The notes below the pieces were generated by a model. The model was not told where the DNA came from and searched no databases. It worked only from the letters and a program-made list of their open reading frames with translations. The translations under genes were made by a program, and so were the position numbers. From the NCBI GenBank assembly GCA_002256025.1, contig NKIB01014869.1, forward strand, positions 1 through 39,995: DNA of 39,995 nt. The letters run 5' to 3'. This document shows, piece by piece, positions 4,459-39,275 of this stretch; position 1 is the stretch's first letter; each line of letters begins with the position of its first letter. Origin of the DNA: Asterionella formosa (lineage: Eukaryota).

Positions 4459-5060
4459 CTACCGGTAATTAGATACTTCGCCCGGTAAGTACCAGGTACC
4501 TTACAACAGAGGACATACTGTGCCGGTACCACGAAATGTGTTGAGCTATACATTCGTATTTTCTATGTAACATCTGTCCAGGACCGTCCGTCTCACATTC
4601 TAAGATACAGATATGTAGGGAACAAGTTTAAATAGAACAGGCAGATGTCCGTCAGCATTGCTGCTATTCGTAAATGTGTATTTGAGTACGTCCCAACGCG
4701 ATACTCCATCTTACCTGTACAAGTAGGCAAGAATCCAAAATCCAAACCATACCAGCAAGAGTGGTACGTACCTGGTACCACCACCTATTACCAGTTACCG
4801 CTATGTCGGGAAATCTCCAAGCTAGCAACGACATCTCTCCGATTTCTGCTTCTTGTTTGTGGATATACCAGGTACCAGGTACTCCTACCTTGTAGTAGGT
4901 ATCATACCGGTATATCATATGTACCGGTAGTACATGCATCATGTTTGGTGCTATTTAATATACCGGTATAATGTAAGCTTGAAATATATCCAGTTATAAA
5001 TTAAATTTGTTTTTCTATACTGCAACAATACATTCGCCTGTTGGTAGTACTGGTAAGTAC
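4459..5060. repeat. Cluster 1 of TACC(W)GGTA / GGTACC palindromes
   Basis: Many TACCGGTA, TACCAGGTA, TACCTGGTA and TACTGGTA copies, upstream of the FAS1 gene. Confidence 0.85.
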
Positions 5061-5158
5061 ATTCATCTTGTTTGGTGCTTTTAAAAAATGTAAGTTTAAA
5101 TATATTCAGTTATGAGTTAAAATAGTTTTTCTATACTGCAACAAGCATTCGCGTGTTG
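4930..5158. repeat. Diverged tandem duplication (~4930-5044 vs ~5057-5158)
   Basis: Both copies share tgtttggtgct...aatgtaag...cagttat...gtttttctatactgcaacaa...cattcgc. Copy 1 has an extra TACCGGTA at 4961-4968. Confidence 0.85.
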
Positions 5159-5523
5159 TTTGCACCTAGATGATAATGACTCGTGTCTAGTAACATGCAG
5201 ACTGTTCAGTATGGCTGCTGGTCATGAGAGACACGGTATCTACGGTCGTTTTCGCGACACACGTACTGGTAGACCACCTCGTCTCTTGCATGCAAAAAAT
5301 ACCGACAGCCCAGCATGGAAAACAGAAGAAGCAAACTTGTAAACATAATGACCATCAGAAGTTCTTCAGCCTTCATACATAACAGTAATACATGTTTTAT
5401 TGTCCACAGTTCCACTACCAGGGTGGGTACCTTACCCGGGGAGCATTGAGGTCCGCTATTGACTACATACAGTACTAGCATTTCACTATACGTAGTATAA
5501 AACGAGCATCATCATTCACCGTT

Positions 5524-7125
5524 ATGAATCCTAGCGACGAAGAATGCAATGCACAGGGCTGTCGGCGGTTTTCAAAAGCCTTGAATGGGCTTGTTCCAGG
5601 AGGACCAATGCCTGGAGCATATAGTGTTAGAAGTTCATTATCTGGTAGAGTGGTCGCACCATCTTGGGACCAGTTGGATGACGATGAGAATAGCTCCGAC
5701 ATGTTGAGTTTTCACGTGGACCTCGTGGAGGAACAAGCCACACAAGCTGACTCAAGAAGTCCACACCAATCGTCTGTCAATCAAGGAGAAATGGATTCAA
5801 ACAACGAGATAGTGGTGACTAGTCACGATTTCTTTGTGGCAGAAGCATCAGCGCAAATTCCAGATGCACCACTGTTGATCGAAGGAGTGAAAACGGCAAA
5901 TCCAATGCACCAACGAATCTGCATAATCTTTGGATCGTTGGTCTTTTTTTCAGTGGTGGCGATGTCTGTGGGTATAATAACCCATGTGATTACCTCGTCC
6001 AGCCATAGTAGTCATGTTCATAGTTCCAATACATCGATGGCGTCAAATTCACCATCTGGAGTATACGAAAGCTATCAAGCCAGCACTTCTGGCCCCTCCA
6101 CGTCTCCATACGGAGGAAATATAAATTGGACAATTTCGGAAGGCTTCTATTCACAACCAAATCTTGCATCATCCATTTTACTTTCGAAAGGTGGAAATGT
6201 ATTCTTGGATACGCTTAACCGAACGGACACGAACTTCACTGTCTTTGGATTCAGCAAATGGGCATCTCTCCCGGAAAGTGTTCCGTTGACGCTTGTTACC
6301 AAGATGATTGGAAGTTTGTGGAGCGGTCATGTGGTAAGTTTGTAAAATATTTACTCTATGCTTCCGTCCATCATCATAAACTCCCAACCTAAATACTTTC
6401 ACCACACCTGCCAGCTTGATGCATTCGAAGGACTAATTATTGATGGTCAGGTTTTGGAAATGGAAGACATGCAAGATGGGATGGTTCTGACATCGGTATC
6501 CGGCTATCCACTTTTGATTCAGCTCGACCCTTTTCGCGTGAACAATAATACCATATCTATGGGGCAACATAATTTACGGTATTCAAATGGAGTGGAACAT
6601 GTATGTGATAACTTTCCCACGCCTCCGGCACCTTGGGTCGGAAATTCGATATTCGATGGGCTACTCAAAACTAACACTCGACGCAAAGGTGACCTTTCGG
6701 TGTTCATCGCACTGCTCAACGCTGTGCCAGAATTAAAACAGCAGCTTGAACTACAAGAAGGAAACAACAATGCAACAACTCTGTTCATTCCTACCAACAA
6801 TGCCTTATTAAACTATGATTCGAGTTTGTCTGTGTTTGCAACAGATACAAGTCAACATGTCAATTCCACTTTAAAACTGCTCCTACTTAATCATTTTGTA
6901 GTGGGCAACTTTGTCCGTCGGTGCTGGTGGGTGATTCCTACCGGTACACAACTGAGTGACTCGGAATTGACACTATACTCTCAAGCAGGCAATGCCTTAA
7001 ATGTTTCTATTGAAGACTTGCTAGTTACTGTCAATGGAGATTCAAACATCGTGGAAGGAGATATATTTTCCGAAAATGGCATTTTTCACATTATTGACAA
7101 ACCTTTGTTACCTCCCAGTCGCTAA
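5524..7125 (+). CDS. Membrane-anchored fasciclin (FAS1) domain protein; exons 5524-6333 and 6415-7125
   Basis: An 81 bp GTAAGT...CCAG intron (6334-6414, phase 0) joins the two ORFs. N-terminal PGAYSV motif, one TM helix, Ser-rich linker, FAS1 H1/H2 motifs TLFIPTNNA and NGIFHIIDKPLLP, plus a degenerate first repeat (NFTVFG...NGVEHVCD). Confidence 0.85.
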
Positions 7126-7331: not shown

Positions 7332-7916
7332 NNNNNNNNNNNNNNNNNNNNNNNNNNNNNNNNNNNNNNNNNNNNNNNNNNNNNNNNNNNNNNNNNNNNN
7401 NNNNNNNNNNNNNNNNNNNNNNNNNNNNNNNNNNNNNNNNNNNNNNNNNNNNNNNNNNNNNNNNNNNNNNNNNNNNNNNNNNNNNNNNNNNNNNNNNNNN
7501 NNNNNNNNNNNNNNNNNNNNNNNNNNNNNNNNNNNNNNNNNNNNNNNNNNNNNNNNNNNNNNNNNNNNNNNNNNNNNNNNNNNNNNNNNNNNNNNNNNNN
7601 NNNNNNNNNNNNNNNNNNNNNNNNNNNNNNNNNNNNNNNNNNNNNNNNNNNNNNNNNNNNNNNNNNNNNNNNNNNNNNNNNNNNNNNNNNNNNNNNNNNN
7701 NNNNNNNNNNNNNNNNNNNNNNNNNNNNNNNNNNNNNNNNNNNNNNNNNNNNNNNNNNNNNNNNNNNNNNNNNNNNNNNNNNNNNNNNNNNNNNNNNNNN
7801 NNNNNNNNNNNNNNNNNNNNNNNNNNNNNNNNNNNNNNNNNNNNNNNNNNNNNNNNNNNNNNNNNNNNNNNNNNNNNNNNNNNNNNNNNNNNNNNNNNNN
7901 NNNNNNNNNNNNNNNN
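7332..7916. other. Assembly gap (N run)
   Basis: 585 consecutive N. Confidence 1.
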
Positions 7917-7973: not shown

Positions 7974-8397
7974 ATGCGCTCAATCATCATCTGTCTCTTT
8001 GCCTCCTTTCTCGCTGTTCACGCGATCGAAATGAGAGTATCTCGCATGTTCAACAATTTCTTTCTCGAAGACCCATACATCAACCCGTGGCTTGGCGAAA
8101 TGATGTTTGAAGCCGCTGACAAGATCAGCGAAGTGGGTTCTACCAGTACTAGCCGTCGCGGATCGGATGAAAAGAAGGTCAAGACTGTTTCGTTGAAGAA
8201 TGTCAAGGCCCCAGAGAAGGACAAGAAGATTGGTATGTACTCCGAACCAATGAAATCACTTTTCCATGCTATTGGGCTGACTTTTTGCTTCTTTCATTCT
8301 TGCATCTATTGTAGATATCACCGATAAGAGAAGAGTCGGCTGGTTTTTGGGTGGATTGAATGTTAAAGATATTGATGACATTCCAGACTTTGAATAG
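7974..8397 (+). CDS. Small secreted protein, 113 aa; exons 7974-8232 and 8315-8397
   Basis: Signal peptide MRSIIICLFASFLAVHA. An 82 bp GTATGT...GCTGAC...TAG intron (8233-8314, phase 1) gives the C-terminus ...KIDITDKRRVGWFLGGLNVKDIDDIPDFE*. Confidence 0.65.
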
Positions 8398-8656
8398 ATG
8401 AAAAAGATACATGACATGCATAATGTTCATCACATGAGGACATCAGACAGGGAACCAAAATATGATCGTATAATAGGTATCAGTCCAGATAAACATCCCT
8501 CATATGTCGTTTTGACTTCATCACCAACAAAGCGCAGTCTGACATTTACGTAATTCACTTTTTATAAAATATATAAACAAGTAAACAACGACGTACGGCT
8601 CCACATGTGGCTTCAGTAGAATTCTCCGGCCATGTCAATAGTGTTACTTTGATTTT

Positions 8657-10021
8657 CTATACAAAGCTATACTTACTTGGCGGTAGTTCTGATGCCAACA
8701 GAGCTTCCTTCATGAATGCCTGAACGAACAAGCTTTTGGGATGATCGTAGAGAAGTACTCGCTGAGCAAACCGCAGCTCTCTTAATCTGGCCTCGGTTTC
8801 CACTTGACTTTGTGCCAAGGCACCCATCAAGGCCCCTGCTGGGTCTTTCATAAAGGCTCCTTCACCAATGAAAATACTATATCGGCTCATATCGATTGTT
8901 GATGAGAATGTTGGTGCATACAGTGGATAATAATCACTCACAATCAAAGGGATACATCCCACCTTGACGGCACGGATTAATGCATGTGTATGAGGTGTAT
9001 CTCCTCGAATCGCCAAACAGTATTTGGAATTCACAAATTGCTGCAACCATTCTGTCTTGTTCAAATCAAATCCAATACATGATTGGTTAAAAGGAATCGA
9101 TGTTTTACTGACCGACAGTGGAGCATGTCGATAGGGTGTCGAGTTGTAAAACGAAGTATGGACACGGGTGCGATAAAAGATCCAATTGGATGCATGTTCG
9201 AATTTATCTGTATAGGACGCTTCAAGGTAGGGTAACGATGGTTCCGCCAAAAGTCCCAATGAAAATCCGTATCTAGACATGGTGTATTTGGATTCCGCAA
9301 ATAGTCCCTTGTAGTCATGTCGAATGGCTGCGTTGTGAGTAAGTTGGGCACAGCGAAAGTCATCCCAAGACTTGACGACCGTTACATTGGCAAAAAAATC
9401 ATAAATTTCCTTGTTGAATCCATGTCTAGCTACATCAGACCGATGCTCATAGGTAAATGTAGCTGTATTCAAGGCTACAATCACATGTCCGTGTCCATAA
9501 TTCCAATGTTCGTGCTCGGAAAGTGCGGCAATTACTTTTGGCATATGCAAGCCACGATGTATGACGCTGGCCCCGACACGAAGCGGGATGATAAATAATT
9601 GAGCCTCTTGTGCGATGCGTGTCCGAAGAGGATGCTTCTCAAGTGCCTCCAATACGGCATGCTCTAAAAGTGCTTCGGGACGGAATCGTTCCTTGAGACG
9701 ACCACGACCTCGATTCAGAATCAAATTTTCAGTAATGTTTGGTTGAGAAATCCGTGGATCTGAGTGGACGTAGTATCGAATGGAAAGCTGTTCAAGCTGG
9801 CGTTGCATAATTTCAAGAGATGGTATTCTGCTGCTGGTGATACTGATTCCATTATGGAAGCTTGAGTCGATGAGGGGTGTCTGATCGTTGAGAATAATAA
9901 TCTGGGAGTGATGATGGACGAAGGAAATTATAGCAAATGCGATAGTTGAAAGTAATAACCATACTTCGACTCTTGAATTTCGCTTCTCTTTCGACGAATA
10001 TCTCATTCTTATAATTGTCAT
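8657..10021 (-). CDS. Exostosin-like glycosyltransferase (GT47), type II membrane
   Basis: N-terminal TM anchor and GT47 signatures HPLRTRIAQEAQLFIIP and SKYCLAIRGDTPHTHALIRAVKVGCIPLIVSD. First ATG at 10021. Confidence 0.85.
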   Translation of the reverse strand: MTIIRMRYSSKEKRNSRVEVWLLLSTIAFAIISFVHHHSQIIILNDQTPLIDSSFHNGISITSSRIPSLEIMQRQLEQLSIRYYVHSDPRISQPNITENLILNRGRGRLKERFRPEALLEHAVLEALEKHPLRTRIAQEAQLFIIPLRVGASVIHRGLHMPKVIAALSEHEHWNYGHGHVIVALNTATFTYEHRSDVARHGFNKEIYDFFANVTVVKSWDDFRCAQLTHNAAIRHDYKGLFAESKYTMSRYGFSLGLLAEPSLPYLEASYTDKFEHASNWIFYRTRVHTSFYNSTPYRHAPLSVSKTSIPFNQSCIGFDLNKTEWLQQFVNSKYCLAIRGDTPHTHALIRAVKVGCIPLIVSDYYPLYAPTFSSTIDMSRYSIFIGEGAFMKDPAGALMGALAQSQVETEARLRELRFAQRVLLYDHPKSLFVQAFMKEALLASELPPSKYSFV

Positions 10022-10327: not shown

Positions 10328-10780
10328 TACCTGGTACATACCGTTATCTATTATCACCCGAGCTCCCGAGTATAAAATACCTAAGATATACCGGTACCTG
10401 GTAGTCTACCTACTATCATTACTATTTTTATACCCGGTTACCCGGTAATAGAGACTACTTACCTGGTACCTGGTACCTGGTACCTGGTACCTGGTACCAG
10501 GTTGGTACTGGTACCTGGTACCGTTACATAAGGAGAAACAACAGCCATTCTACATGAGCAGATACATGATACGAGATAAAAATAAATGCATGTACCTGCA
10601 CCAGACTACAGGAATTACCGGTATGCTTACGTAGCTATGATACCAAAACACCACTTACACTCAAGCATGATCTTCATTTTCAATCCAGCATACCGGTACT
10701 GGGTATTCTATCACAGATACAGGATAGAGGTAGCAGGTGCTGTATATGAATATATGAGTGTAAGCATAGATGGTGTACCG
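10328..10780. repeat. Cluster 2 of TACC(W)GGTA palindromes, including (TACCTGG)5-TACCAGG at 10460-10501
   Basis: Read directly from the sequence. Lies in the divergent intergenic region between the GT47 and ssSPT genes. Confidence 0.9.
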
Positions 10781-11487: not shown

Positions 11488-13098
11488 TTAAATGGAACCA
11501 TGTTGATTCACTTTCCGTCGTGCTGCCGCATAATAGAACCGCTTGTTGGCTATTGGTAGAGCAGTCGATCGTCGATATGGTTCCTCCACCACAGCTTCGG
11601 CAGATACAGTCTCTCCTGGTCGAATGGATGTAAAATCAATATTGACAGATGCTGCTTCTTTTTCTAGTAACCTAGGTGGCTCATCGTCATCTTCTTCTGC
11701 CAATGCAAATGTACCCCAATGAATGGCAACACTCTTTTTAGACCGGACTTGTTCATGTATTTTCACAGCCTCACTTGGGTGGATGTGGCTGTCTGCCATG
11801 AAAAATCGTGGGGCGTATGCACCAATAGGAATGGCGGCCAAATCAAAGGGGCCCAGGGCATCCCCAATTTGCCAAAACAAGGGAAAATCTGTTGGATAGC
11901 CCGTGTCTCCACCAAAATAAAAATTGCGACTAGGGGATGATACGGCCCATGAGCACCATAGTCGATGATTGCGATCCCACATGGTACGCGAGCCCCAATG
12001 TTGAGCAGGCGCGCAAGTAAGGGTTAAGGGAGGACGGTCTTGGGGTACCGGTAGTTGCAGCGACAATGTGTGATGTTGCCACCATTCCAAGTCAATGATT
12101 TTAGTTGGATCAATGTCGCACTTTTCGACTAACCACTCTTTCATATTCAGTGGGACAGCCCACAATTGTACACGATCCTTGAGAGCGCGACAAGAGGTCT
12201 TGTCCAGGTGATCGTAATGATCGTGAGACAAAAGAACAACATCAATGATGGGTGGCAAATTTTCCACTTGACAAGCAGCTTGGACATGGCGTGGAACGCC
12301 CAGAGGAAGCCACTGTACTGGTGATGCTCGATGAGAAAACATGGGATCCGTGAGTATGTTATATCCTGACAGTCTCACTAGACATGTGGAATGGCCAATC
12401 CACGTCAGAGACAGATGGTCCTGGTGATTGCTGTTCTGGAGTTCCCAAGGCACAGGTGCTACCGGCACCGTCTCTCTCTTGTTCCAGACTCGCAATCGTT
12501 CGAGCCTCCACGTCACAAACTCCCAAATCGGATGACTCCCATTGGTACTTTGCGACGACCACGGGTTCACAAACCTCCCAGATTCATCACGTGCCGTAAG
12601 GGGATATCCATTCGCATCGAACCAATGAGCCTTGCTATATTCCGTCAGCTGCACCGGGTGTTGTCTGAACAGTCTTGATTTAAACATTTTGTTCATCCAT
12701 ACACCCCGCCGTTGTCTCCACCAATGCCTCCCTGCTCTATACCGCGACGGTCGTTGTTGGTTATAGGATCGATTGTGAAAAAAGGTGGAAACATTGGATC
12801 GATAGTTTTCCTTGATCCGCTTCACCCAAATTGTCCGTTCCTTGGCTCGTTTCCCTAGCCACGTTTGGATGGTGGATCGAAATTCATTCCAAGAGGCTGG
12901 AAGGAAAATGTAGGACCGTGAGGGTTGCCATTGTCCCTTATTAACGGTAATAGTTGTACTCGATAGTGGGTTGTGAGAGCCGCCGAGGATAGAGATAGAG
13001 GTAGCAGCGTAGCTGAATGATGGGCAACATGAAGTACAAGAACTAGCAGCCAGAGTCCTCCCGAGGGCGAAACGCGAACAAACTACAACTCGCAGCAT
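11488..13098 (-). CDS. NAPEPLD: N-acyl-phosphatidylethanolamine phospholipase D (NAPE-PLD/Fmp30-like, metallo-beta-lactamase fold), probably mitochondrial
   Basis: Motifs GRFVNPW, TWIGHST, ILTDPMFS, SHDHYDHLD, AQHWG, YFGGDTGY, IPIGAYAPR, IHWGTF. The N-terminus is R/S-rich and acid-poor, resembling a mitochondrial presequence. Confidence 0.9.
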   Translation of the reverse strand: MLRVVVCSRFALGRTLAASSCTSCCPSFSYAATSISILGGSHNPLSSTTITVNKGQWQPSRSYIFLPASWNEFRSTIQTWLGKRAKERTIWVKRIKENYRSNVSTFFHNRSYNQQRPSRYRAGRHWWRQRRGVWMNKMFKSRLFRQHPVQLTEYSKAHWFDANGYPLTARDESGRFVNPWSSQSTNGSHPIWEFVTWRLERLRVWNKRETVPVAPVPWELQNSNHQDHLSLTWIGHSTCLVRLSGYNILTDPMFSHRASPVQWLPLGVPRHVQAACQVENLPPIIDVVLLSHDHYDHLDKTSCRALKDRVQLWAVPLNMKEWLVEKCDIDPTKIIDLEWWQHHTLSLQLPVPQDRPPLTLTCAPAQHWGSRTMWDRNHRLWCSWAVSSPSRNFYFGGDTGYPTDFPLFWQIGDALGPFDLAAIPIGAYAPRFFMADSHIHPSEAVKIHEQVRSKKSVAIHWGTFALAEEDDDEPPRLLEKEAASVNIDFTSIRPGETVSAEAVVEEPYRRSTALPIANKRFYYAAARRKVNQHGSI

Positions 13099-13446: not shown

Positions 13447-13532
13447 TACCGGTACAAACGTATTTTGATACGGTAGGGACCTGGTACCAGGTAGCAGGTA
13501 TCTTTCATTCATGGTTGTGGGAAAATGGTACC
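13447..13532. repeat. Cluster 3 of TACC(W)GGTA / GGTACC palindromes
   Basis: gtaccggtac, acctggtaccaggt and tggtacca, between the NAPE-PLD start and the TE island. Confidence 0.75.
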
Positions 13533-19270: not shown

Positions 19271-20662
19271 AATCCTCAGTTAGAAAAGTGCAATGTTTTC
19301 TACGTAATCCGTCCTAAAAACACGCTGCTTGGCACTTGAGTCGCTGCAAGTCAACGCAACTATTTTAACCAGAGGCAGTACCTATTACTATGTAATCCAA
19401 CGGTCTGCGAAATCTTGGAATCAGAAACACTATGTACCAAAACGTCCTCATTGGAATATGAGTCTTTTGAAGGATTTTTTAATCAAAAAATCTCCTGTAT
19501 TTACCGGTATATGCCTATGCGCCAATTTCAAAATTTTCAAATAACCACATGCAACCTTCCCCAAAGTCAATTGTTTGTAAAAGCTGTTTTAGCCTGTTTT
19601 CCTATTCTTGTTGATAAATCTTCGAGTTTCACCGAAAGTCCTTTCAACAAATGCCTATTGTACTTTATGTTACTCCTTGCTCATTTTGGAAAAAATTGGC
19701 TTTTGAGATACCCCTAGAGCAGCCACTACATCACCATGATTATAAGTTATGCAGCTGGTGTTCCATCAACTGTGCCATGGGGTCACTTTGAATGGTTGGC
19801 TCAATATGCATAGTCATCTACATTTGGACTTTACAAGGTTGTGGTATTTACATCAGGGGGCACATTCAATACATGCAGCACATGCATTTTAGGACTCACC
19901 AATGACTTCGGGTTAACTCTCTTGATCCTCAATACATTTGCTTATGTTGTTGTACTCACCAAGACATCTGATGGAAGGCAATTTGGACCATCGATACTTG
20001 CTTGCTCCTTTTTCTAAAGTTACTGTGATGGGTGATGCCAGCTTTGTGGATGGTGTCAGAAGATAATTTGCCAAGTTTGTTGACCAGTATCATGGCATTA
20101 GCCAGTAATGTTGGTCTTGTTAAAAGGTTTTAGCCATCATGTGCATAACAGTAGATATTGTCAAATAGTAACGCTATTACCGGTATTCTAGACCTATATT
20201 ATTTCTTATTTGGGTGTTGGGATGGTTCTCATTCGGGTCTTCCTGAGGAAAAAAATATACACGACCAAAATTTGATCCAGCTAATGATTTAATAAGTTAG
20301 ACCTCGTACAATCAATAAAAAGAATCCAATGAATAGCGAGCTACAAGTGACAATATAAAAGACTTGAAGAGACATGATAATTAAAAAAATAGACACAATT
20401 CGAATCTGATTGTTTGCTCATCATAGAACAGACCTGCCTTCATGAATCATTGTTCTAGTTAACACGTTCATTCCAGCCCTTGCTTTTGATGCTACAATCA
20501 CCTATTATAACACGGAAACAAAGCAACAGACACAAAGTGACCGCTTTATCAACATCATCAAGCAGACATTTATTTGAACTCTCTACTACGTATGCTTTTG
20601 ACACACAACACCCACCCATCCATCTATACCTACCTTGACAACTAAATTAATTGACAGCAAAT

Positions 20663-25797: not shown

Positions 25798-26220
25798 ATA
25801 CCGATACATACCGGTATACCGGTAGTCCAGCGAAAACAAAAAAGTGCCATATGAATATATATACCGGTAGTACAGTATGTGTGCGTATCGTACGATGCTA
25901 ATAATGCATGGATGACATCGCATGCCAACCATGTACCTTTTGTGCTTGAGTTCATACATATCATGGAGTATGACCGGATACTAAAGCAAATCCGGGGCGA
26001 AGAAACAAAAGGGTACCAGGTACTGGTACCTGGTATGATCATGTATGATGTGTGCGTGTATGAAAGCCGAGACGCATCTCGATCCTCCAGCACCAAGCAA
26101 GCAAGTTGAAAGAGCATCTTATTTAAACCAAGTCGTACCTGGTATATACCAGCTCACCGGTATATCCCATGGCTGTAACTGTTTACGATAGTACTGGTAC
26201 CCTGATACCAGGGTACTACT
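25798..26220. repeat. Cluster 4 of TACC(W)GGTA palindromes
   Basis: taccggtataccggta, ggtaccaggtactggtacctggta and others, in the divergent intergenic region. Confidence 0.85.
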
Positions 26221-26895: not shown

Positions 26896-28662
26896 ATGAC
26901 CATTGTTCCCAACTACCGGTATTGGCCTTTGTTGATACTGACACTCTTGACAGGCGCAACAACAACAACAACATCATTTGTTATCTCTACTACGACTAGT
27001 ACAAAAACTGCAACACACCTCTTCGCCACGACAGCAGAAGAGACCACATATGACTTGGCCATTATCGGCGCCGGTCCTGTGGGATTCCAAGCTGCCATGG
27101 CCGCAGCGTCCATGTTCAATAAACGCGTTTGTCTTATTGATGCACCAAGAGCATCGGGCGCTTTGATGAATGGTGACGAAGATTTAAGTCTAGGAGGACC
27201 CACCGGACTATTTAGTAAGGCACTTCGAGATACATCCAAACGCATCAAGGTTAATTCCTTGCGGGGGATGGGACTACGAGAAGATTCGGTTTGGAATGAA
27301 ATTATCAATTCTTGTTTGGACCTGGCAGGACAAAATGCACAAGATGCTGTGCGGCAATTGGCGTTTGCGGGTGTTACGTATGTGCAGGGATTTGCCAGTT
27401 TTCCAGATGGAGGTGGGACCAACTCTCTCTACGTTACCACAGACAAGGCTGTGCAAACCATTCGGGCTGCCAATGTCCTGGTCGCAACTGGATCCACGCC
27501 CTTTAGACCTGGTGGAATTCCATTTGATGGAACGCGCATCTTTGATAGTGACAGTATCAATACATTATCCTATTTACCCAAATCTATTGCTATTACAGGA
27601 TCAGGTATCATTGCCATGGAATTTGCAAAGATTTTTAGAAACTTGGGAGCTGACGTGACTCTAATTATTCGAGATCAGATTCCTCGTAATGCGCTCATGA
27701 AGATTGGCCTTGACAAGGATGTCGCGGCGACGCTGGTGGCAGATTTGGTCCGAAGTGGCATTCATATGGAACGAGGATGCCAAGTGAAGGAATTCCAATG
27801 TCCACCAGGTAGAGCACCTATCAAACTGGTACTAGAAGCCACCGGCGGTGGGCCTTTGCCATCTGGTCGGCAAGCAGAAATCAAGTGTGATGCATATTTG
27901 GCAGCAGTAGGACGAAAGCCCAATACGAGCAATCTCAATTTGCAAAGTGCTGGAATTCAAGTAGATGAGTATGGTGGAATCATGGTGGATTCTAGATTGA
28001 GAACGACTGCCAAGAAACAAAATGTGTATGCAGCTGGAGATGTCTTGGGACGCCCGTTTTTGGCGTCAACCGGAGTGGCGCAAGGTATTGCGGCTGTGGG
28101 TGCCATGTTTGGTGGTCCTGACAAAGACCCTGTCGTACTGTCGTCGTGCAACCCGGAAGATAGCTTGTGTGTCGATGGGGATATTAGTAAAGTTGGCGAG
28201 TCCTTCAACCCTGGGTCACTGGCTTCCAACCCTTTTGCCTTTCCCACGGGAGTCTGGACATCACCAGAAGCTGCGTATTATGGCCTATCTATGCAACAAG
28301 CACAAGAGATGGGCATCAACGCCGGTGAAGCCATTTCTCTCTATTGCGAATGTCTCCGGGGCCGCGTCTTTTCACCAAATGGACTATTGAAGTTGGTGTA
28401 CGAGAAACCAGCCGGACGTGTGTTGGGCGTACACATTTGCGGTGACGATGCATGTGAACTTATTCACTATGGGATGGAATTGGTCAAGGCGAAGCGAACT
28501 ATTGAAGATTTGAACAAAAGTCTCTATTCTGCTGTAACGTATCATGAAATGTATCGCATTGCAGCGCAGTCGGCATTGGACGAAAAGGGAGCTCGTAAAC
28601 GCAGAGCCGCAGCAGGAGCTGCTCTGCAAACACGAAATCGTTTAAAGCGAGGTGGTGAATAG
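26896..28662 (+). CDS. Soluble pyridine nucleotide transhydrogenase (SthA/UdhA)-like flavoprotein, predicted plastid-targeted
   Basis: FAD motif YDLAIIGAGPVG, then SKALRD, ATGSTPFRP, RIFDSDSI, GSGIIAMEFA, VYAAGDV, FPTGVWTSPE and LKLVY...VLGVH...ELIH. No CxxxxC and no HPT catalytic motif. ATG 26896 begins a signal peptide ending TTS-F, followed by a Thr-rich transit-like segment. Confidence 0.8.
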   Translation: MTIVPNYRYWPLLILTLLTGATTTTTSFVISTTTSTKTATHLFATTAEETTYDLAIIGAGPVGFQAAMAAASMFNKRVCLIDAPRASGALMNGDEDLSLGGPTGLFSKALRDTSKRIKVNSLRGMGLREDSVWNEIINSCLDLAGQNAQDAVRQLAFAGVTYVQGFASFPDGGGTNSLYVTTDKAVQTIRAANVLVATGSTPFRPGGIPFDGTRIFDSDSINTLSYLPKSIAITGSGIIAMEFAKIFRNLGADVTLIIRDQIPRNALMKIGLDKDVAATLVADLVRSGIHMERGCQVKEFQCPPGRAPIKLVLEATGGGPLPSGRQAEIKCDAYLAAVGRKPNTSNLNLQSAGIQVDEYGGIMVDSRLRTTAKKQNVYAAGDVLGRPFLASTGVAQGIAAVGAMFGGPDKDPVVLSSCNPEDSLCVDGDISKVGESFNPGSLASNPFAFPTGVWTSPEAAYYGLSMQQAQEMGINAGEAISLYCECLRGRVFSPNGLLKLVYEKPAGRVLGVHICGDDACELIHYGMELVKAKRTIEDLNKSLYSAVTYHEMYRIAAQSALDEKGARKRRAAAGAALQTRNRLKRGGE

Positions 28663-29916: not shown

Positions 29917-30140
29917 CTACCGGTACTGTTCTCCGAGTACCAGGTACCAACATGGCTGTAGTTTCAAAAAACCGTTTTTGGGCTTTTTTTGATGTCAGTC
30001 AGCACAAATATTCCGGTATACAGTACACTGGTACCAGGTACCAAATCGCAAAGTATCCTTCCCGAGTTGTTACCGGCATGTATGACAGTTTGTCGTAAAA
30101 GATATACTGGTACTGGTATGCCTGTACTGTATACCGGTAT
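29917..30140. repeat. Cluster 5 of TACC(W)GGTA palindromes
   Basis: taccggta, taccaggtacca, ctggtaccaggtacca, tactggtactggta and tataccggtata, upstream of RRP4. Confidence 0.85.
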
Positions 30141-32877: not shown

Positions 32878-32936
32878 TGCCGGCTGTAATTCGTTGACGC
32901 GGTTTTTAAAAAGTGCAACTTTCTTTTTGCACTAGT

Positions 32937-33350
32937 AGTACCGGTATGTATGATGTAGCAGTGTGCTAGTTTTTCCATACATACCACTGAGCACATCGGA
33001 TAGTAGCCTACCTGGTACCTGGTACCAGGTACCAGGTACCATAGGTTTTTTCCCGATATGCTCAGCTATGTACCGGGTAGGTCTAACGGAGTCATTTGTC
33101 AAACAACTACCGGTACATATCTTAGGTACCTGTAGACCATATGCACATGTGAAGTAGGATGTTCTATTTTATGTAGAATCTGTACGGTGATTTTATAATG
33201 GTCCAACATCCCACGAGCTATGGGGGCTATTTCATTTGTGTACCTGGTACCTCTCCGATATACATTCATGCATTTTGGCAATCATCCTTCGTCGTAGCGG
33301 AGATACCTGGTACCGTACCCCACCTGGTATCAGGCTGGTACTGGTACCAT
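32937..33350. repeat. Cluster 6 of TACC(W)GGTA palindromes, including a perfect 30 bp palindrome at 33009-33038
   Basis: tacctggtacctggtaccaggtaccaggta equals its own reverse complement. Several further copies follow. Confidence 0.9.
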
Positions 33351-34139: not shown

Positions 34140-35230
34140 TTCCTTCATTTTTCCGGAAGCACCCAGATGCTATCATGGATGCATTTAAACGATATGGATT
34201 GTGTTAATTGATGCATTGTTATGTGCATGAGAGCTTGATACCAGCTACAATGAAGAGTCTTGGACAGGCATTTGAAGATGACAGAACAAACAACAACAAT
34301 TTCGGGAAAAATTTCATGACAGCAGCAATGAAGAACAATTATTTAAAGAGAAATGGATTAAAGTGTATATCTATGTCTACAATAGTACGCTAGATGCATG
34401 TTGTTGGATTCAGGTACAAAAACAGAGCAACACACTTTTTGTAGATGTTAATGAGAAGGCTACAACTTTGAATTATAGACGGTATCTCGATTTGGAGGTA
34501 GCTACAGGCACACAGATGGATTCTGTTTTTTCGAGTCTAAGTTGCGAAAAATTCAATTGAAACTAAACAAGTAATCGAAGAAAGAAGGTTGGTTGGGTAA
34601 GTCAAAGGGTTTGTTGCAGGTGCTATGGGAGCAAGGCTTCATTGATGAAAAAATATTGAAAAATACAAACTTACTGGAAAGAAGAACGATTTTGGAATGA
34701 TTGATAAATCAACAAGCTGAGGAGACATTATGACAATGTGCTCTGACTTCCTTCGTGAGCAAGGAACAATGATGGAATGCATTGGGCGGAAAATTGGAGT
34801 GGAAGTTATCTTAACTCAAAATGCCATCAGAACTTGCAGGTGAAGGAGTGGAATTCATGTGGACCTGGTGCTCCAAGAACCACTATCGAAATCTAGCTAT
34901 CATAAAAAGTAAAGAAAGGGAAAGGCAAGTTTACAGAAGCAGTTAGAATGGGTTTGTTGGCAGATATGAATACATTGATGTGAATAAGAAGATTCGCAAA
35001 ACGAGCAAGGCAATGTTTGATTGCTTTCTATGCAATTGATAGTGGTCAAGTCAATACAATAAATTCACTAAAAATGCGACTTCCAGGTCAAGTCAATACA
35101 ATAAATTCACTAAAAATGCGACTTACATGGACCTGTTGCCATTCAAAAGTTGATAGGCAAGTTCAGGACTCATTGCTGCACAATAGACTTTGATTTTAAG
35201 TTTTTTTATCAGCATTGACAATGATGATAC
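34140..35230 (+). mobile_element. Decayed DDE DNA transposase, IS630/Tc1-mariner-like
   Basis: Frameshifted motifs CWIQ, GWLGKSKGLLQVLWEQGFID (~34590-34650), CSDFLRE..TMMECIGRKIGVEVILT.KCH.ELAGEGVEFMW..SKNHYR (~34740-34890) and THCCTIDFDF (~35170). No TIRs identified. Confidence 0.7.
35044..35124. repeat. Tandem duplication, period 42 bp (39 bp identical)
   Basis: ggtcaagtcaatacaataaattcactaaaaatgcgactt at 35044 and 35086. Confidence 0.95.
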
Positions 35231-35377
35231 TAGATAATGAAAATGGAATGAAAAAAATTGAACATGATGACTCTACTTTTATGTGTGCAAAACTAATGTT
35301 TGGCATTGCAAAATCAATAACATACTGCAAGGTATGAGCGGCTACCTGCCGATGTACTATGGGGATGCACCCAGCCA

Positions 35378-35690
35378 TACATAGACTCTATTCTTACCAA
35401 AAACGTACCATATCAGAGATTCTCCCAATTCTACAGTATGACCGTATGGTACTATAGCTAGCTAGTACCAAATACTCGAAAGGTACAAAACACCTGCATC
35501 ATTCTTTTGTTCTATTGTTTCTAGTAGCACAACTAATGCCCAAGTTTCATCAATTGTTGTCTGGAATGTCCACTTTGTTCTGATTCATCAATAAAGCAGA
35601 CTTCATATACAGACTCCAGACAGGTGACAATCAATGTGAAAATCATGACATACATACCACATCTTCCCAATATGTATGCTTGACAAACCC
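35378..35690 (-). pseudogene. Decayed duplicate of the 3' end and 3' flank of the BT1 transporter gene
   Basis: Aligns with ~36066-36340 (tacatagactctattcttacca...ctaatgcccaagtttcatcaat...ggtgacaatcaatgt.aaaatcatgac), with indels and substitutions. Confidence 0.9.
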
Positions 35691-36192
35691 TATCCTCCAG
35701 GAATTTTCATAGTGCCTCTCTTTTTTCGTCTCTTTTTTCATTTTTCTCTTCTGTTCTTGCTGAGGACTTGAACTGTTGACCTCTGGTTTTCACATACATC
35801 CATGTACCACTTGTACTAACAAGCATGCTACCATGTTAAAATTTATGGCACTTCTTCCTAGCACACTACAGACTGCCCTGGAATGACCAGTCAAGATCTT
35901 TCTTGCACCACTCATTTGTATATTACACTGCTATATAAATACTGTCTATTTCCATTTAGATAGTCCTTAGACTAGTACATCTAGTCTTCAAACACCTGTC
36001 AACATCAACAGCCTAAAAGACACATTCTGAGAGGAACTAGCAGTAGACTGAATCACATTACCAGTACATAGACTCTATTCTTACCATTATACCATATCAG
36101 AGATACTCCCAATACTCCAGTGTGGTACTATAGCTAGTACCAGGTACTCGAAAGATACGAAACACCTTTATTGTTCATTCGTTCTATTGTTT

Positions 36193-38382
36193 CTAATGCC
36201 CAAGTTTCATCAATCGTCTGGAATGTTCACTTCGTTCTGATTCATCATTAAAGCAGACTTCATACACAGATTCCACAAAGGTGACAATCAATGTTAAAAT
36301 CATGACTGAAATAAATATCACACCTTTCCAATAATGTTTTTGCGTATCCGCTTGCAGTATTCGTTGATCCTCCTTATCCTTGGGAATAAGGTGGAGTAGC
36401 AAGAGAGGGATTGGTCCAACAACTCCACAGAGCAGTGTTAGCTTCCAAATACCCTCATAGCCGCCATTTGCAATAGTCTCAGAGGATACATCCCAAATGA
36501 CAGTCAGTGCTGTTGAGATGTCAAAGGCCAAAGACCCTGCCAAGTTACTCCAAGTTGTCAGCATAGCATAGGTTGTTCCTTCACTTCCCTTGGGACACAG
36601 TCCCAAATACATTATGCACATGGGGAGAAACTGAACTGCAATGACAAATTCAACCAAGACATCATCTCCCATACTGAACCAAATGTCCGGAATGCCAATT
36701 AGTCTATTGATACCAAAGACCAAAATAATTTGACCCAATGCTATACACGATGCCAAGGTGGTACACCAAAAATACACCATTCTCCAATTGGCTCCAAAGA
36801 AGAACTTTTCATAAGTCATGATCCCAAACCATGCCATGACAGACCCAACAACACCCACAAGGCCAATCTGCCATGCCGAAAAGTCGAGTCCTTCCACCAA
36901 AAAGTTCATCCAGGCGGCATTGGTCAATTGCAATGCATTGTAAATGTACACAAACGTCATGGGTTGCCAAACTGCTCGAAGTTGAGCCGTGGCGAACAAA
37001 TCGTAACACTGAATAAAGAAGTTCTTGGGCTCGCAGTTGGTCTCCAATTCCAAAAGGTATGGTACAAACGGCAATAGGAAAAGGAGAGGAAAGGCACCAT
37101 TGATCAAGAAAACAACGTTAATGGGCAGGTACCAACTCCAATCATCCTTATTGTATACAACAGCTCCAATGGATGCCCCAATGACAGATCCAAAAAATCG
37201 AATAATGTATCCCTTGGACTGCATGGTTCCACGCTTCGCTTCCGTCTCATAGCGACTACGTTCAACGATGAGAGCATCTGTCATAACGTCGGCTAACATG
37301 TACCCTGCCGTTTGTGTAAATACCAAGAGAATAACCATTCCAATGGACGGCTGTGGTGTAACAACGAGAATAAAGTTGGATAGAATATACAGTACCCATC
37401 CAGACATGAAATATGGTTTTCGACGCATGCCAGAAATGGGAACACAATCTGACAAAAATCCATAAATGACTTTGAAACACCATGGGACGGCCACTGTAGT
37501 GTGTGAAACAAGAGTAGGTGGTGGTGGTGGAGGTTAGAAACTTGTCGCTTGCAGAAAATGATACTACCGGTATTTGCAGTGTCAAAAGCAACAACTTACT
37601 AACAGTAAATAGCACATTCACTTCGGCAGCAGTAGCATTCAAATCCTCAATCAAGTAGACAATCAAGGGTGTTCTTAGCAGTTGCAGCGCAATTCCGATG
37701 CAAAAATAACTCAACGGAATGGCTACATTGGGCAAAGAGAAAAACTCGTACATCCAACCTGGAGGCGTGCCGGTCGCTTTCATCTCTTCTTGTTCGGCCT
37801 GAGTTAGGGGGGTGTATACCATGTACCCGAACCAATCGTGCAAGTAAACACTGGACCACGCAATGTAGCCATCCTCCAGGCGACCATCTATCCGTGAAAC
37901 AAACTGTGAGGTCAAAATAATACAATCGTTGTGTGACGATTACAGAATAGAGCTCACTATCGAAAGCAACAAACAAACTTACACCACCGCTTCTTGATCA
38001 TCTTCCCGGATGGTTCAAACTTGATGTAATAGGGTCCCTCATAATACGGGGCCTTCTGTCCATGACTGTCAAAGACAAACGGACCAGTCGACGAATCATC
38101 GCTCCTCATACTCTTCATTGTGATCATACTAATCGGAGACATGGGTGGCGGTGAGTACGGGTCCTGCGGTGCTGCCGCAAATTCCAGATTTGGGCTGGAA
38201 GTTCCCTGTGTTTGCGATGCAGGACTCGCACTGATAGTAGAAACAACAGTAGCAAAACCTAGCTGAATGGCCAATCGTCTCGCTTCCGCATTGGCTCCAG
38301 CAACGTCCAAGTCTTCTTCCTGTTTCCTGCGGGGTCCAGCTTCACCTCCACCCAGCAAGGCATCGGATGAAACAAACGTCAT
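36193..38382 (-). CDS. Folate-biopterin transporter (BT1 family, MFS), ~662 aa; exons 38382-37983, 37887-37600, 37493-36193
   Basis: Two phase-1 GT-AG introns (37982-37888, 37599-37494) give KKRW-Y-GRLED and LFTV-M-AVPW. BT1 motifs: PWCFKVIYGFLSDCVPISGMRRKPY, ADVMTDALIVERS, LCPKGSEGTTYAMLTT. Confidence 0.9.
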
Positions 38383-38817
38383 CACAACTTTAGCAGTTGT
38401 GGCAATGTTTGTATGACACTAATGCACACAAACAACTGAACGTTAATATATACAGTAAGCTACAATGACGGTATTTGCGGGAATGCGTTTCGTAGCAGCA
38501 GAAGAAGCAAGAGCGGAAGCTTAGAAGATTGATTTTGTTTCGATGATTCTTGGCTTGTGGTTCGCTCCATTCTTATTCCTCACAGCACTCGCAATTTATG
38601 TATGTATATGTTTGCTATATTCAGAGATGTGGATAATGTTTTCATGCAAAAGGCACCAGCATCGCCATAAATAGTCTTATTTTATCCATGTACAGCTGTA
38701 TAATTAGAAAAATAAATATATTCGTGTACTAAGATATGTTCCGCCTTGCTCCTTCACTTATTGAGCATTGGTTTGAATTGGGTCGCCGACTGTAACGGCC
38801 ACATAAAAGGATCTCAT

Positions 38818-39275
38818 TTACCGGTACTTCTACTCAACTGGGTATTGGGACCTGGTACCTACTGACAACTTATTTAAACGACATCATCATGTCAACTGTT
38901 CTACCGGTACCCTGGTACTGGTACCAGGTACCAGATCCTTGAGTACTTGGCATCAGGGTATGTACCAGGTACCACGTGCTCCCCTCATCAGGCGGCACGG
39001 AGATCAGCAGCCAAGTGGCTGCTGTAATTGTGATGATGCGAAATATTTAGCTTTTAAATCCCATGTTGATTGTTGATTTAATATAGTAAAAGCAAAATGC
39101 TTTGCAGGTTTAACCAACTCCCACCGCAACCAAGCACTACCGGTACCTGGTACCTATTACCGGTAGTCTACCCTGGTCCCTGGTCCCTACCTGGTACCAG
39201 GGGTACCTGGTGAACTGGTACCACACCTATTGGTACTACCTTTAGTCTACGTAGATAGCAGCACCTACGTACCTA
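38818..39275. repeat. Cluster 7 of TACC(W)GGTA palindromes
   Basis: Dense taccggta, tacctggta, taccaggta and ggtacc copies between the BT1 start and the terminal ORF. Confidence 0.9.

What the first reader, a model, noticed from the sequence alone, without database searches (positions are those of the whole stretch)
4459..39275. Highly iterated TA-CC(W)GG-TA palindrome family concentrated 5' of genes and at gene/repeat borders
Seen: seven dense clusters (4459-5060, 10328-10780, 13447-13532, 25798-26220, 29917-30140, 32937-33350, 38818-39275) of TACCGGTA, TACCAGGTA/TACCTGGTA and TACTGGTA/TACCAGTA, often chained through GGTACC. The near edge of each cluster is about 60-460 bp upstream of a start codon. 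The convergent 3' spacers (1251-1697, 8397-8657, 11201-11488, 22324-22671, 31244-31468) essentially lack the motif. Five clusters separate a gene from non-genic or decayed-repeat DNA. Inference: a genome-wide system reminiscent of cyanobacterial HIP1, acting either as a promoter or boundary element or as the scar of an enzyme working on open chromatin. I know of no description in diatoms but cannot check the literature.
Basis: partly seen in the sequence, partly recalled or inferred. Interest (0 to 1): 0.85.

Follow-up and report, generated by a model that had tools for sequence, protein, structure and literature searches.

The report
Palindrome clusters upstream of diatom genes
In this stretch of a freshwater diatom genome, short palindromes (TACCGGTA and TACC-A/T-GGTA) pile up just upstream of almost every gene, most likely as docking sites for a DNA-binding protein that marks gene starts; the 8-letter form is already reported as a promoter motif in water moulds, distant relatives of diatoms.

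Summary
TACCGGTA (P8) occurs 25 times and TACCWGGTA (P9) 30 times, against 0.17 expected for each in shuffles. They are the most enriched 8- and 9-mers in the window. 55 of 67 family words lie in the seven clusters named, which cover 2660 bp.

The 5' bias survives a control for spacer length. In four tandem spacers, 31 hits lie in the 5'-proximal half and 2 in the 3'-proximal half. Convergent spacers hold 0 in 1960 bp. RNA contigs stop short of the clusters.

The clusters are in independent assemblies of other samples. The 7-bp array recurs at dozens of other loci with unrelated flanks, so it is neither an artefact nor part of a longer repeat.

P8 is the published Phytophthora promoter motif M94. 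Other stramenopile contigs carry their own TA-CNNG-TA palindromes.

My best reading (0.45) is a promoter-proximal site family for a dimeric factor, with arrays grown by slippage. The rivals are transposon excision scars (0.2), an enzyme-driven, HIP1-like process (0.15) and a neutral minisatellite (0.1). None is excluded. I found no description in diatoms.

The parts
4459..5060 (.). Cluster 1: 9 family words, 7-bp array at 4866-4882, upstream of the fasciclin-domain gene (+ strand, ORFs 5479-7125)
10328..10780 (.). Cluster 2: 12 family words including the longest array (10460-10522, period 7, 9.6 copies), 262-700 bp upstream of the GT47/exostosin gene (- strand, ORF 8657-10066)
13447..13532 (.). 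Cluster 3: 2 family words plus a degenerate array at 13475-13500, about 260-340 bp upstream of the metallo-beta-lactamase-fold (NAPE-PLD-like) gene (- strand, ORF 11488-13188)
19502..20185 (.). Two solitary TACCGGTA words (19502, 20178) upstream of the JmjC/cupin gene (+ strand, ORF from 20651)
25798..26220 (.). Cluster 4: 8 family words between divergent genes. The spliced - strand gene has an RNA contig ending at 25756; the pyridine-nucleotide disulphide oxidoreductase gene (+) has its ATG at 26896.
29917..30140 (.). Cluster 5: 6 family words upstream of the RRP4 exosome gene (+ strand). The RNA contig begins at 30347. An imperfect inverted repeat spans 30009-30141.
32937..33350 (.). Cluster 6: 9 family words upstream of the Cas1p-type acyltransferase gene (- strand). 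The array at 33009-33041 (4.7 copies) includes a perfect 30-nt palindrome at 33009-33038. Many contigs from other loci end at this place.
38818..39275 (.). Cluster 7: 9 family words between the 5' end of the BT1 transporter gene (- strand, RNA contig ends at 38540) and a truncated copy of a high-copy repeat (from 39298)
6939..6946 (.). TACCGGTA inside coding sequence. It encodes the conserved residues P-T-G-T of the fasciclin domain, so it is not an insertion.
12046..12053 (.). TACCGGTA inside coding sequence. It encodes L-P-V in a loop of variable length in the MBL-fold protein; these residues are absent from the nearest homologues P0127 and P0129.
26914..26921 (.). TACCGGTA 18 nt after the putative ATG of the oxidoreductase gene (residues Y-R-Y of the N-terminal presequence)
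37565..37572 (.). TACCGGTA in the stretch 37494-37982 that the RNA contig skips (a likely intron of the BT1 gene)

Best explanation
The words form a lineage-specific family of promoter-proximal cis-elements. The unit is a full palindrome made of two half-sites, TACC and GGTA, set head to head with 0 nt (TACCGGTA) or 1 nt, almost always A/T (TACCWGGTA), between them. I infer that one dimeric DNA-binding protein reads both spacings and marks or opens the region 40-700 bp upstream of most genes, as a general regulatory or boundary factor would. The 9-mer lies inside GGTACC-W-GGTACC, which is already nearly two 7-bp units. Replication slippage then grows it into arrays of (TACCWGG)n that change quickly between populations.

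Shown here: the enrichment, the strict spacing, the position upstream of genes and of RNA contig ends, the occurrence at many loci, and the identity of the 8-mer with a published oomycete promoter motif.

Inferred, not shown: protein binding, any effect on transcription or chromatin, and slippage as the mechanism of growth.
For: 1. Strict dyad grammar. TACC-to-GGTA spacing is 0 nt 25 times, 1 nt 32 times (30 W, 2 S) and 2 nt only twice. The half-site alone is not enriched: 31 CCGGTA, of which 25 lie inside the palindrome, against 4.7 expected.
2. Position. Of 9 well-supported genes whose 5' end lies in the window, 8 have a cluster upstream and the ninth (JmjC) has two solitary words. The 5'-proximal to 3'-proximal split in tandem spacers is 31:2, and convergent spacers hold 0 in 1960 bp. 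About 6 kb of non-genic DNA (13533-19501) and 33347-36058 hold no family word. So the words follow gene starts, not non-coding DNA in general.
3. PolyA-RNA contigs end at 25756, 30347, 32822 and 38540, outside the clusters.
4. No orientation bias of W relative to the gene, as expected for a palindromic site.
5. Precedent. TACCGGTA is P. infestans motif M94, described beside M93 (TACATGTA) among that paper's 'high-confidence' promoter motifs (passages of PMC3597505). ATACCGGTAT/GTACCGGTA lies upstream of 206 Plasmopara genes (passage of PMC10031896).
6. Two related contigs of another stramenopile (L015, L016) carry TACCGGTA 4 and 3 times against 0.11 and 0.12 expected. One copy is kept at the same place, 57-67 bp upstream of orthologous ORFs.
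7. The clusters share no sequence beyond the arrays, and the flanks of the array at other loci are unrelated (loose-end agreement 0.33-0.42). The words therefore arose or are kept locus by locus.
Against: - No binding protein, reporter, accessibility or TSS data exist for this organism.
- Adjacent units in arrays overlap by 2 bp, so neighbouring units could hardly be bound at the same time.
- The family is nearly absent from other diatom contigs at the same locus (L006 0 in 11 kb, L011 0 in 21 kb, L010 2 in 8.8 kb). It is not a conserved diatom element.
- TACCGGTA is surrounded by one-transition derivatives (21 observed against 4.2 expected; transversions 8 against 6.2). That looks like free mutational decay or formation rather than tight constraint.
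- TACCGGTA is also enriched inside coding DNA (3 against 0.067 expected, Poisson P = 5e-5), which selection on promoters does not predict.
- Array ends are asymmetric on the + strand whatever the direction of the gene: CC follows 13 of 21 right ends and GG precedes 3 of 17 left ends (Fisher p = 0.009). This is unexplained.
- In the passages I read, M94 is not among the motifs stated to have been tested functionally.
Confidence: 0.45

Rival explanations
1. Excision scars of a cut-and-paste transposon that inserts at TA (Tc1/mariner/pogo type) and has ends 5'-CC(A)...(T)GG-3'. Each insertion duplicates TA. Each excision leaves 2-3 end letters per side. This gives TA-CC+GG-TA, or TA-CC(W)GG-TA when the overhangs overlap by one mismatched base. 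Re-insertion into a scar's own TA adds further units, giving chains that share exactly TA. Promoters collect scars because insertions land in open chromatin and are tolerated there.
For: - Every family word is TA-C..G-TA, and 15 of 28 close neighbour pairs share exactly TA.
- Chains mix unit types and orientations, such as CCAGG-CTGG-CCTGG and CCGG-CCTGG, which pure slippage does not give directly.
- The centre of the 9-mer is W in 30 of 32 cases. This is what a repaired A.A mismatch would give, by analogy with the Sleeping Beauty footprint TAC(A/T)GTA (recalled, not checked here).
- Other lineages have different top palindromes of the same form: TACTAGTA in L011 (8 against 0.21), and TACATGTA with TACCGGTA in L015/L016 and in P. 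infestans. These are the scars expected for elements with CT, CA and CC ends; TACATGTA is the classic form of the Tc1 footprint (recalled).
- P8 would add 6 bp (in frame) and P9 7 bp. In coding DNA there are 3 P8 and 0 P9 (Fisher p = 0.09). One coding P8 lies in an indel-variable loop, and another P8 lies in a likely intron.
- X6 contig pieces spanning clusters differ from the window by 27 and 21 gap letters, against 0-9 in the six other listed pieces.
- The transition-rich halo fits neutral decay.
Against: - No element with TA-flanked inverted ends starting CC, CT or CA was found in the window or in the 80 related loci. No transposase domain was found in the window's unassigned ORFs.
- Partial-end scars are not enriched: TA-CCA-TA and its reverse complement 14 against 8.9 expected, TACCATGGTA 0.
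- TACTGGTA/TACCAGTA can be explained as a CpG transition of P8 or a 1-nt deletion of P9.
- The fasciclin P8 sits on conserved residues and is not an insertion.
- P9 at 36138 differs from its paralogous copy at 35466 by two substitutions and no indel (D5).
- Long non-genic stretches that should tolerate scars have none.
- Tc1/mariner elements are not known for strong promoter targeting (recalled).
Confidence: 0.2
2. A HIP1-like product of an enzyme system rather than of selection on binding sites. A sequence-specific methyltransferase, nuclease or mismatch-repair activity recognises ACCGGT/ACCWGGT and acts mainly on open promoter DNA. It either drives near-matches towards the palindrome or leaves it as a repair product. 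One protein could read both CCGG and CCWGG by flipping out the central A:T pair, as described for the CCGG-family restriction enzymes Ecl18kI, PspGI and EcoRII (recalled).
For: - P8 is enriched even in coding DNA (3 against 0.067). This includes a site built from codon choice on the conserved residues PTGT, as HIP1 is in cyanobacterial genes (recalled).
- Both spacings occur, with a strict W centre.
- One-transition neighbours of P8 are 5-fold enriched and could be precursors or deamination products. The commonest is the CpG transition (12 against 1.8).
- The palindromes are lineage-specific.
Against: - No candidate enzyme and no methylation data.
- Density differs 20- to 40-fold between 5' spacers and coding DNA, unlike HIP1.
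- n = 3 for the coding sites, one of which lies 18 nt after an ATG, that is, within a promoter region.
- No such drive is known in eukaryotic nuclei (recalled).
Confidence: 0.15
3. A functionless 7-bp minisatellite plus chance palindromes. The sequence GGTACCWGGTACC is slippage-prone. Such arrays arise, spread by ectopic conversion and persist in promoters only because indels are tolerated there.
For: - Seven period-7 arrays.
- Contig pieces from another population differ in length over the clusters.
- A 27-nt irregular arrangement is shared by two clusters (10489-10515 and 33322-33348, 93% identity), suggesting copying between loci.
- P9 has few decayed relatives, so its copies look young.
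Against: - 25 solitary or non-tandem TACCGGTA words, and many solitary 9-mers, cannot come from slippage.
- 3' spacers and non-genic DNA tolerate indels as well but lack the words.
- The same 8-mer is promoter-enriched in oomycetes and in L015/L016.
Confidence: 0.1

Closest known systems
Oomycete promoter motif TACCGGTA: P. infestans M94 (Roy, Kagda & Judelson 2013, PMC3597505); motif-9 GTACCGGTA of Seidl et al. 2012 (seen only as cited in PMC10031896); Plasmopara halstedii streme-5 ATACCGGTAT (PMC10031896)
   Same: Identical 8-bp palindrome. It is over-represented within 500-1000 nt upstream of start codons in another stramenopile group. It is accompanied by a sister palindrome that differs only in the two central bases (TACATGTA), a pair also seen here in contigs L015/L016.
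   Different: In oomycetes it is one of about 100 stage-associated motifs found in subsets of genes. Here it sits at almost every gene start, at up to 12 words per 450 bp. It is joined by a 9-bp A/T-centred form and by 7-bp arrays that the oomycete passages I read do not mention. No stage or expression data exist here. I read passages only; the supplementary tables could not be opened.
HIP1 (highly iterated palindrome GCGATCGC) of cyanobacteria
   Same: An 8-bp palindrome that is the most over-represented word of its genome. It is lineage-specific and of unknown origin. There is a hint here of enrichment inside genes too (3 against 0.067).
   Different: Different sequence and domain of life. 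HIP1 is spread through coding and non-coding DNA (recalled). Here 52 of 55 P8/P9 words are non-coding and concentrated 5' of genes.
Microsatellite-like binding-site arrays of general regulatory or pioneer factors, such as (GA)n for GAGA factor and Reb1/Abf1 sites in yeast promoters (recalled)
   Same: Short sites repeated in tandem or clustered just upstream of many unrelated genes, at the edge of the transcribed region. A role in keeping promoters open or insulated is proposed.
   Different: No factor is known here and binding is untested.
Tc1/mariner excision footprints, such as TACATGTA-type Tc1 scars and TAC(A/T)GTA Sleeping Beauty scars (recalled)
   Same: The form TA + end letters + end letters + TA, a W centre in the odd-length form, and chains that share TA.
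   Different: No matching element was found. The density is far above any footprint record I know. Partial-end variants are not enriched.

Membership tests
Oomycete promoter motif M94 / motif-9 (TACCGGTA) | Exact palindrome TACCGGTA over-represented against background | tested here: met
   25 observed against 0.17 in shuffles and 0.41 under the Markov model
Oomycete promoter motif M94 / motif-9 (TACCGGTA) | Located in the 500-1000 nt upstream of start codons | tested here: met
   40 of 55 P8/P9 words lie within 600 bp of a 5' gene end; 31:2 in favour of the 5'-proximal half of tandem spacers
Oomycete promoter motif M94 / motif-9 (TACCGGTA) | Association with a developmental stage or co-expressed gene set | not testable with these tools
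   No expression series for this organism. The words occur at 8 of 9 gene starts here, which argues against a narrow regulon.
Oomycete promoter motif M94 / motif-9 (TACCGGTA) | Conservation in orthologous promoters of related species | tested here: inconclusive
   The nearest related contig (72% RRP4 identity, L001) holds only 135 bp upstream. More distant diatom contigs lack the words. L015 and L016 keep one copy at the same place but are closely related to each other.
HIP1-type highly iterated palindrome | Spread throughout the genome, coding regions included, at roughly uniform density | tested here: not met
   0.19 per kb in coding DNA against 3.8-7.8 per kb in 5' spacers and 0 in convergent spacers
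HIP1-type highly iterated palindrome | Over-representation also within coding sequence, accommodated by codon choice | tested here: inconclusive
   3 against 0.067 expected. One is on the conserved residues PTGT. n is too small.
Tc1/mariner excision footprints | TA on both sides, enclosing a few letters of each element end | tested here: met
   All family words are TA-C..G-TA; chains share TA
Tc1/mariner excision footprints | A resident element flanked by TA whose inverted ends start with the enclosed letters | tested here: not met
   None in the 40-kb window or in 80 related loci (497,554 bp). The whole genome was not available.
Tc1/mariner excision footprints | A spectrum of variant scars carrying partial ends | tested here: not met
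   TA-CCA-TA/TA-TGG-TA 14 against 8.9; TACCATGGTA 0; only CTGG/CCAG is enriched (12 against 1.8), and it has other explanations
Tc1/mariner excision footprints | Presence/absence alleles that are exact indels at a TA | not testable with these tools
   The single read-laying run listed only part of the indels. X6 pieces over clusters differ by 27 and 21 gap letters, without positions.
Dispersed repeat / MITE | Copies share sequence beyond the short motif and have defined ends | tested here: not met
   No similarity between clusters beyond arrays of 33 nt or less. Flanks of the array at other loci are unrelated (agreement 0.33-0.42).
Mini/microsatellite | Head-to-tail tandem units with length variation between individuals | tested here: inconclusive
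   Seven period-7 arrays and length differences in contigs of another sample. But most P8 words and many P9 words are solitary.

The most novel reading that the evidence does not exclude
The TA-CNNG-TA palindromes that dominate promoter DNA in several stramenopile lineages are not transcription-factor sites. They are TACCGGTA/TACCWGGTA here, TACTAGTA in another diatom contig, and TACATGTA plus TACCGGTA in a third lineage and in Phytophthora, where they are published as binding sites M93/M94. On this reading they are accumulated excision scars of TA-targeting cut-and-paste transposons, or the product of a domesticated transposase or nuclease acting on open promoters. Promoters would then carry a readable record of past DNA breakage, and part of the published oomycete 'regulatory code' would need re-reading.
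Probability: 0.2. Interest if true: 0.85.

Novelty: new variant of a known kind. Interest (0 to 1): 0.6.

Why it matters
Promoter architecture in diatoms is poorly described. An element present upstream of nearly every gene would be a direct handle on how these algae define gene starts. It could help in designing synthetic promoters and give a simple sequence signature for annotating gene 5' ends.

The 8-mer is shared with oomycetes, which suggests either an old stramenopile factor or a common mutational process. The fact that different lineages carry different TA-CNNG-TA palindromes gives a clean comparative test between the two. If the scar reading is right, it changes how over-represented palindromes in promoters should be interpreted in general.

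Tried and rejected
1. Whole genome: none is held for this window, so genome-wide k-mer and TSS profiles could not be run.

2. Assembly or basecalling artefact: rejected. Contigs of other runs carry the clusters.

3. Dispersed longer repeat or MITE: rejected. The inverted repeat at 30009-30141 (29-nt arms, 83% complementary) lies in a bin of baseline depth.

4. Search for TA-flanked inverted ends. One search covered CC ends in the window. One search covered any ends in the window plus 80 loci. Only array self-matches and a few unrelated pairs came back.

5. Scans for the array TACCWGGTACCWGGTACC. Viral contigs gave 3 loci and prokaryote genome contigs gave 103 or more. The genome contigs record titles are bacterial and the viral loci were not examined; neither set was used further.

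6. Pfam on 20 and then 18 ORFs: no transposase or other mobile-element domain. The unassigned ORFs in 13.2-20.6 kb and 33-36 kb stay unexplained.

7. Test of 'P8 in coding DNA is a 2-codon insertion'. The fasciclin site is not an insertion. The MBL site lies in a variable loop and is ambiguous. The oxidoreductase presequence site was not tested.

8. Diagnostic for ends CCA/TGG against CCT/AGG. CTGG/CCAG gave 12 and CAGG/CCTG gave 2. It is not decisive, because CCGG>CTGG is a CpG transition.

9. Rfam: no match in the window.

10. Earlier notes of this scan: nothing relevant.

11. Supplementary tables of PMC3597505, which hold M94's position and conservation scores, could not be opened.

12. One search timed out and was re-run.

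13. RNA contig ends are only rough stand-ins for transcription starts. Parts without RNA cover (33340-35340) are not evidence of silence.

Full report
**What the window is.** It is 39,995 bp of a gene-dense eukaryotic genome with 42% G+C and one N run at 7332-7916. Pfam assigns nine long ORFs:
- MscS channel, 1-1251 (+)
- fasciclin, 5479-7125 (+)
- GT47 glycosyltransferase, 8657-10066 (-)
- metallo-beta-lactamase fold, 11488-13188 (-)
- JmjC/cupin, 20651-22324 (+)
- pyridine-nucleotide disulphide oxidoreductase, 26653-28662 (+)
- RRP4, 30276-31244 (+)
- Cas1p-type acyltransferase, 31468-32931 (-)
- BT1 transporter, 36193-37533 (-)

The best named relatives of RRP4 are diatoms: Nitzschia, Fistulifera and Bacillariaceae at 54-57% identity. 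The runs that hold the stretch are labelled freshwater, lake-water or algae metagenomes. No whole genome is held.

TACCGGTA (P8) occurs 25 times and TACCWGGTA (P9) 30 times. Dinucleotide shuffles give a mean of 0.17 for each, and none of 100 shuffles comes near the observed counts. These words and their sub-words head every list of enriched 6- to 9-mers.

TACCAGGTA and TACCTGGTA are reverse complements of each other, as are TACTGGTA and TACCAGTA. The family therefore has three members: P8, P9 and an 8-mer I call M8 (12 observed against 1.8 expected).

TRF finds seven arrays of period 7, the longest with 9.6 copies at 10460-10522. 15 of the 28 neighbour pairs lying 30 nt or less apart share exactly the dinucleotide TA.

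**Grammar.**
- The unit is a full dyad. TACC is followed by GGTA with 0 nt between them 25 times, with 1 nt 32 times (30 A/T, 2 C/G) and with 2 nt only twice.
- The half-site alone is not enriched. Of 31 CCGGTA, 25 lie inside P8, and 4.7 are expected.
- P9 usually sits in GG-TACCWGGTA-CC, while P8 has A/T-rich flanks.
- The array at 33009-33038 is a perfect 30-nt palindrome.

**Position.** P8+P9 density is as follows:

| Region | Words | Length (bp) |
|---|---|---|
| Coding | 3 | 15,516 |
| Four convergent spacers | 0 | 1,960 |
| Four tandem spacers | 33 | 8,718 |
| Two divergent spacers | 10 | 9,100 |
| Upstream of BT1 | 8 | 1,023 |

Within the tandem spacers, 31 words lie in the half nearer the downstream gene's 5' end and 2 in the other half. 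Hits in a cluster are not independent, but 4 of 4 tandem spacers show the same pattern.

About 6 kb of non-genic DNA (13533-19501), and the stretch 33347-36058, hold no family word. The words therefore follow gene starts rather than non-coding DNA as such.

Contigs of a polyA RNA run end at 25756, 30347, 32822 and 38540, each short of a cluster. Contig ends are only rough stand-ins for transcription starts.

Of nine well-supported genes whose 5' end is in the window, eight have a cluster. The ninth (JmjC) has two solitary P8 words.

**Reality and reach.** DNA contigs from three other runs cover the clusters. The X1 piece 23456-26332 has no differences and the X2 piece 20000-29088 has 53. At the array 33009-33041, dozens of contigs per run (15-40 in X1, 30-59 in X2, 22-28 in X6 per listed position) run on into sequences that do not agree with each other (agreement 0.33-0.42). 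The array therefore occurs at many other loci with unrelated flanks.

Within the window the clusters share nothing beyond the arrays themselves. This rules out both an artefact and a longer dispersed repeat or MITE.

X6 pieces that span clusters differ from the window by 27 and 21 gap letters, against 0-9 in the six other listed pieces. The clusters are thus length-variable between populations. The positions of these indels were not listed.

**Elsewhere.** Among 80 metagenome loci encoding RRP4 relatives (497,554 bp, nearest 72% identity), the family is almost absent from other diatom-like contigs: L006 0 in 11 kb, L011 0 in 21 kb, L010 2 in 8.8 kb.

Some lineages have their own top palindromes of the same shape. 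L011 has TACTAGTA (8 against 0.21) and CTAGCTAG (8 against 0.18), all intergenic but one and mostly 5' of ORFs. L015 and L016 have TACCGGTA (4 against 0.11, 3 against 0.12) together with TACATGTA (3 against 0.34, 4 against 0.5). The 9-mer form appears only in the window.

**Literature.** Passages of PMC3597505 describe P. infestans promoter motifs M93 (TACATGTA, 4150 occurrences in promoters) and M94 (TACCGGTA) as palindromes differing only in the two central bases. They are placed among that paper's 'high-confidence' motifs. The passages I read do not say that either was among the six motifs tested with reporters. The supplementary tables could not be opened.

A passage of PMC10031896 reports ATACCGGTAT upstream of 206 Plasmopara genes and equates it with motif-9 GTACCGGTA of Seidl et al., a paper I did not see. 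I found no paper linking these words to diatoms and none containing the array string.

**Best explanation (0.45).** A dimeric DNA-binding protein reads TACC/GGTA half-sites at spacing 0 or +1. Its sites mark the upstream edge of most promoters, in the manner of a general regulatory or boundary factor. The 9-mer context GGTACC-W-GGTACC is nearly a tandem repeat already and grows by slippage. The strict dyad, the position, the lack of orientation bias, the locus-by-locus origin and the oomycete precedent all fit. Binding and function are inferred, not shown.

One untested lead from recall: TAC-NN-GTA has the same layout as the tail-to-tail heat-shock element TTC-NN-GAA, and heat-shock-factor genes are greatly expanded in diatoms and oomycetes.

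**What does not fit the best explanation.**
- Array units overlap by 2 bp.
- P8 has a halo of one-transition derivatives (21 against 4.2 expected; transversions 8 against 6.2). The CpG transition is the commonest (12). P9 has almost no halo.
- P8 is enriched in coding DNA too (3 against 0.067, P = 5e-5).
- Array ends are asymmetric on the + strand regardless of gene direction. CC follows 13 of 21 right ends and GG precedes 3 of 17 left ends (p = 0.009).

**Rival 1, transposon excision scars (0.2).** The form TA + C. + .G + TA, the A/T centre, the chains sharing TA, the mixed units within chains and the different central letters in different lineages are what TA-targeting elements with CC, CA or CT ends would leave (footprint forms recalled).

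Against it:
- No such element was found in the window or the 80 loci.
- No transposase domain was found.
- Partial-end scars are not enriched.
- The fasciclin P8 encodes the conserved residues PTGT, so it is not an insertion.
- P9 at 36138 differs from its paralogue by substitutions only.
- Non-genic DNA is free of the words.

The MBL P8 lies in a loop of variable length and its residues are missing from the nearest homologues. That is compatible with the scar reading but not decisive.

**Rival 2, an enzyme-driven, HIP1-like process (0.15).** This reading would explain the coding enrichment, the strict A/T centre and the transition halo. It has no candidate enzyme and does not explain a 20- to 40-fold promoter bias without an added assumption.

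**Rival 3, a neutral minisatellite (0.1).** This fails on the many solitary words and on their absence from other indel-tolerant DNA.

**Verdict.** This is a real, strong and promoter-specific palindrome family. Its 8-mer is a known oomycete promoter motif. Its 9-mer form, its 7-bp arrays, its density and its presence at nearly every gene are new, and I found no description in diatoms. The mechanism remains open between a binding-site family and a mutational scar, and strain comparisons plus a transposon-end search in the full genome would decide between them.

Noticed in passing
window 39298-39995 (- strand ORF 39442-39993): A very high-copy repeat, with summed contig depth up to about 800 times the baseline in run X1. 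It encodes the N-terminal part of a 502-aa protein family with no Pfam domain (P0122, 93% identical, in a cluster of 160 members). The window's copy has a premature stop. It is cut off at 39298, right next to motif cluster 7, whereas other copies continue with a conserved sequence (loose-end agreement 0.99).
   Followed up: partly
window 28671-30004 and 35341-36674: Two further stretches with contig depth 70-150 times the baseline and sharp repeat borders (29440, 29487, 35872). They lie beside clusters 5 and 6. The stretch 35341-36674 also has very high depth in the polyA RNA run. Their nature is unknown.
   Followed up: no
window 35406-35660 vs 36090-36313: The 3' end of the BT1 gene and the DNA just downstream of it are duplicated about 670 bp away, at 85-96% identity. 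TACCAGGTA at 36138 corresponds to TACCAAATA in the copy: two substitutions and no indel.
   Followed up: partly
L011 1-20921 (also L012): Another diatom-like contig has its own over-represented palindromes: TACTAGTA (8 against 0.21 expected) and CTAGCTAG (8 against 0.18). They are mostly in 5' intergenic DNA. There is a (TAGC)n run at 16628-16650.
   Followed up: partly
L015 2500-2560 and 7786; L016 6190-6215: A third lineage carries TACCGGTA together with TACATGTA, the same pair as Phytophthora M94/M93. In L015 there is a GTAC-rich block holding two TACATGTA in a divergent promoter. L016 has a 13-bp tandem duplication that doubles the TACCGGTA-containing site.
   Followed up: partly
window, all P9 run ends: Strand asymmetry: on the + strand, CC follows 13 of 21 right ends of runs, but GG precedes only 3 of 17 left ends (Fisher p = 0.009). 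This is independent of gene direction and of whether the centre is A or T. I have no explanation; it may be linked to replication direction.
   Followed up: partly
window 30009-30141: Imperfect inverted repeat with 29-nt arms (83% complementary) and 75 nt between them. It is built of family words plus TATACAGTAC. A near-palindrome is centred on TACCGGTA at 30132. It lies in a bin of baseline contig depth.
   Followed up: partly
window 10489-10515 and 33322-33348: Two clusters share a 27-nt irregular arrangement of units (93% identity). This hints at copying between loci, for example by ectopic conversion.
   Followed up: no
window 13533-20650: About 7 kb without a Pfam-assignable ORF and with strong A/T and G/C skews. 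It was not covered by the read-laying run.
   Followed up: no
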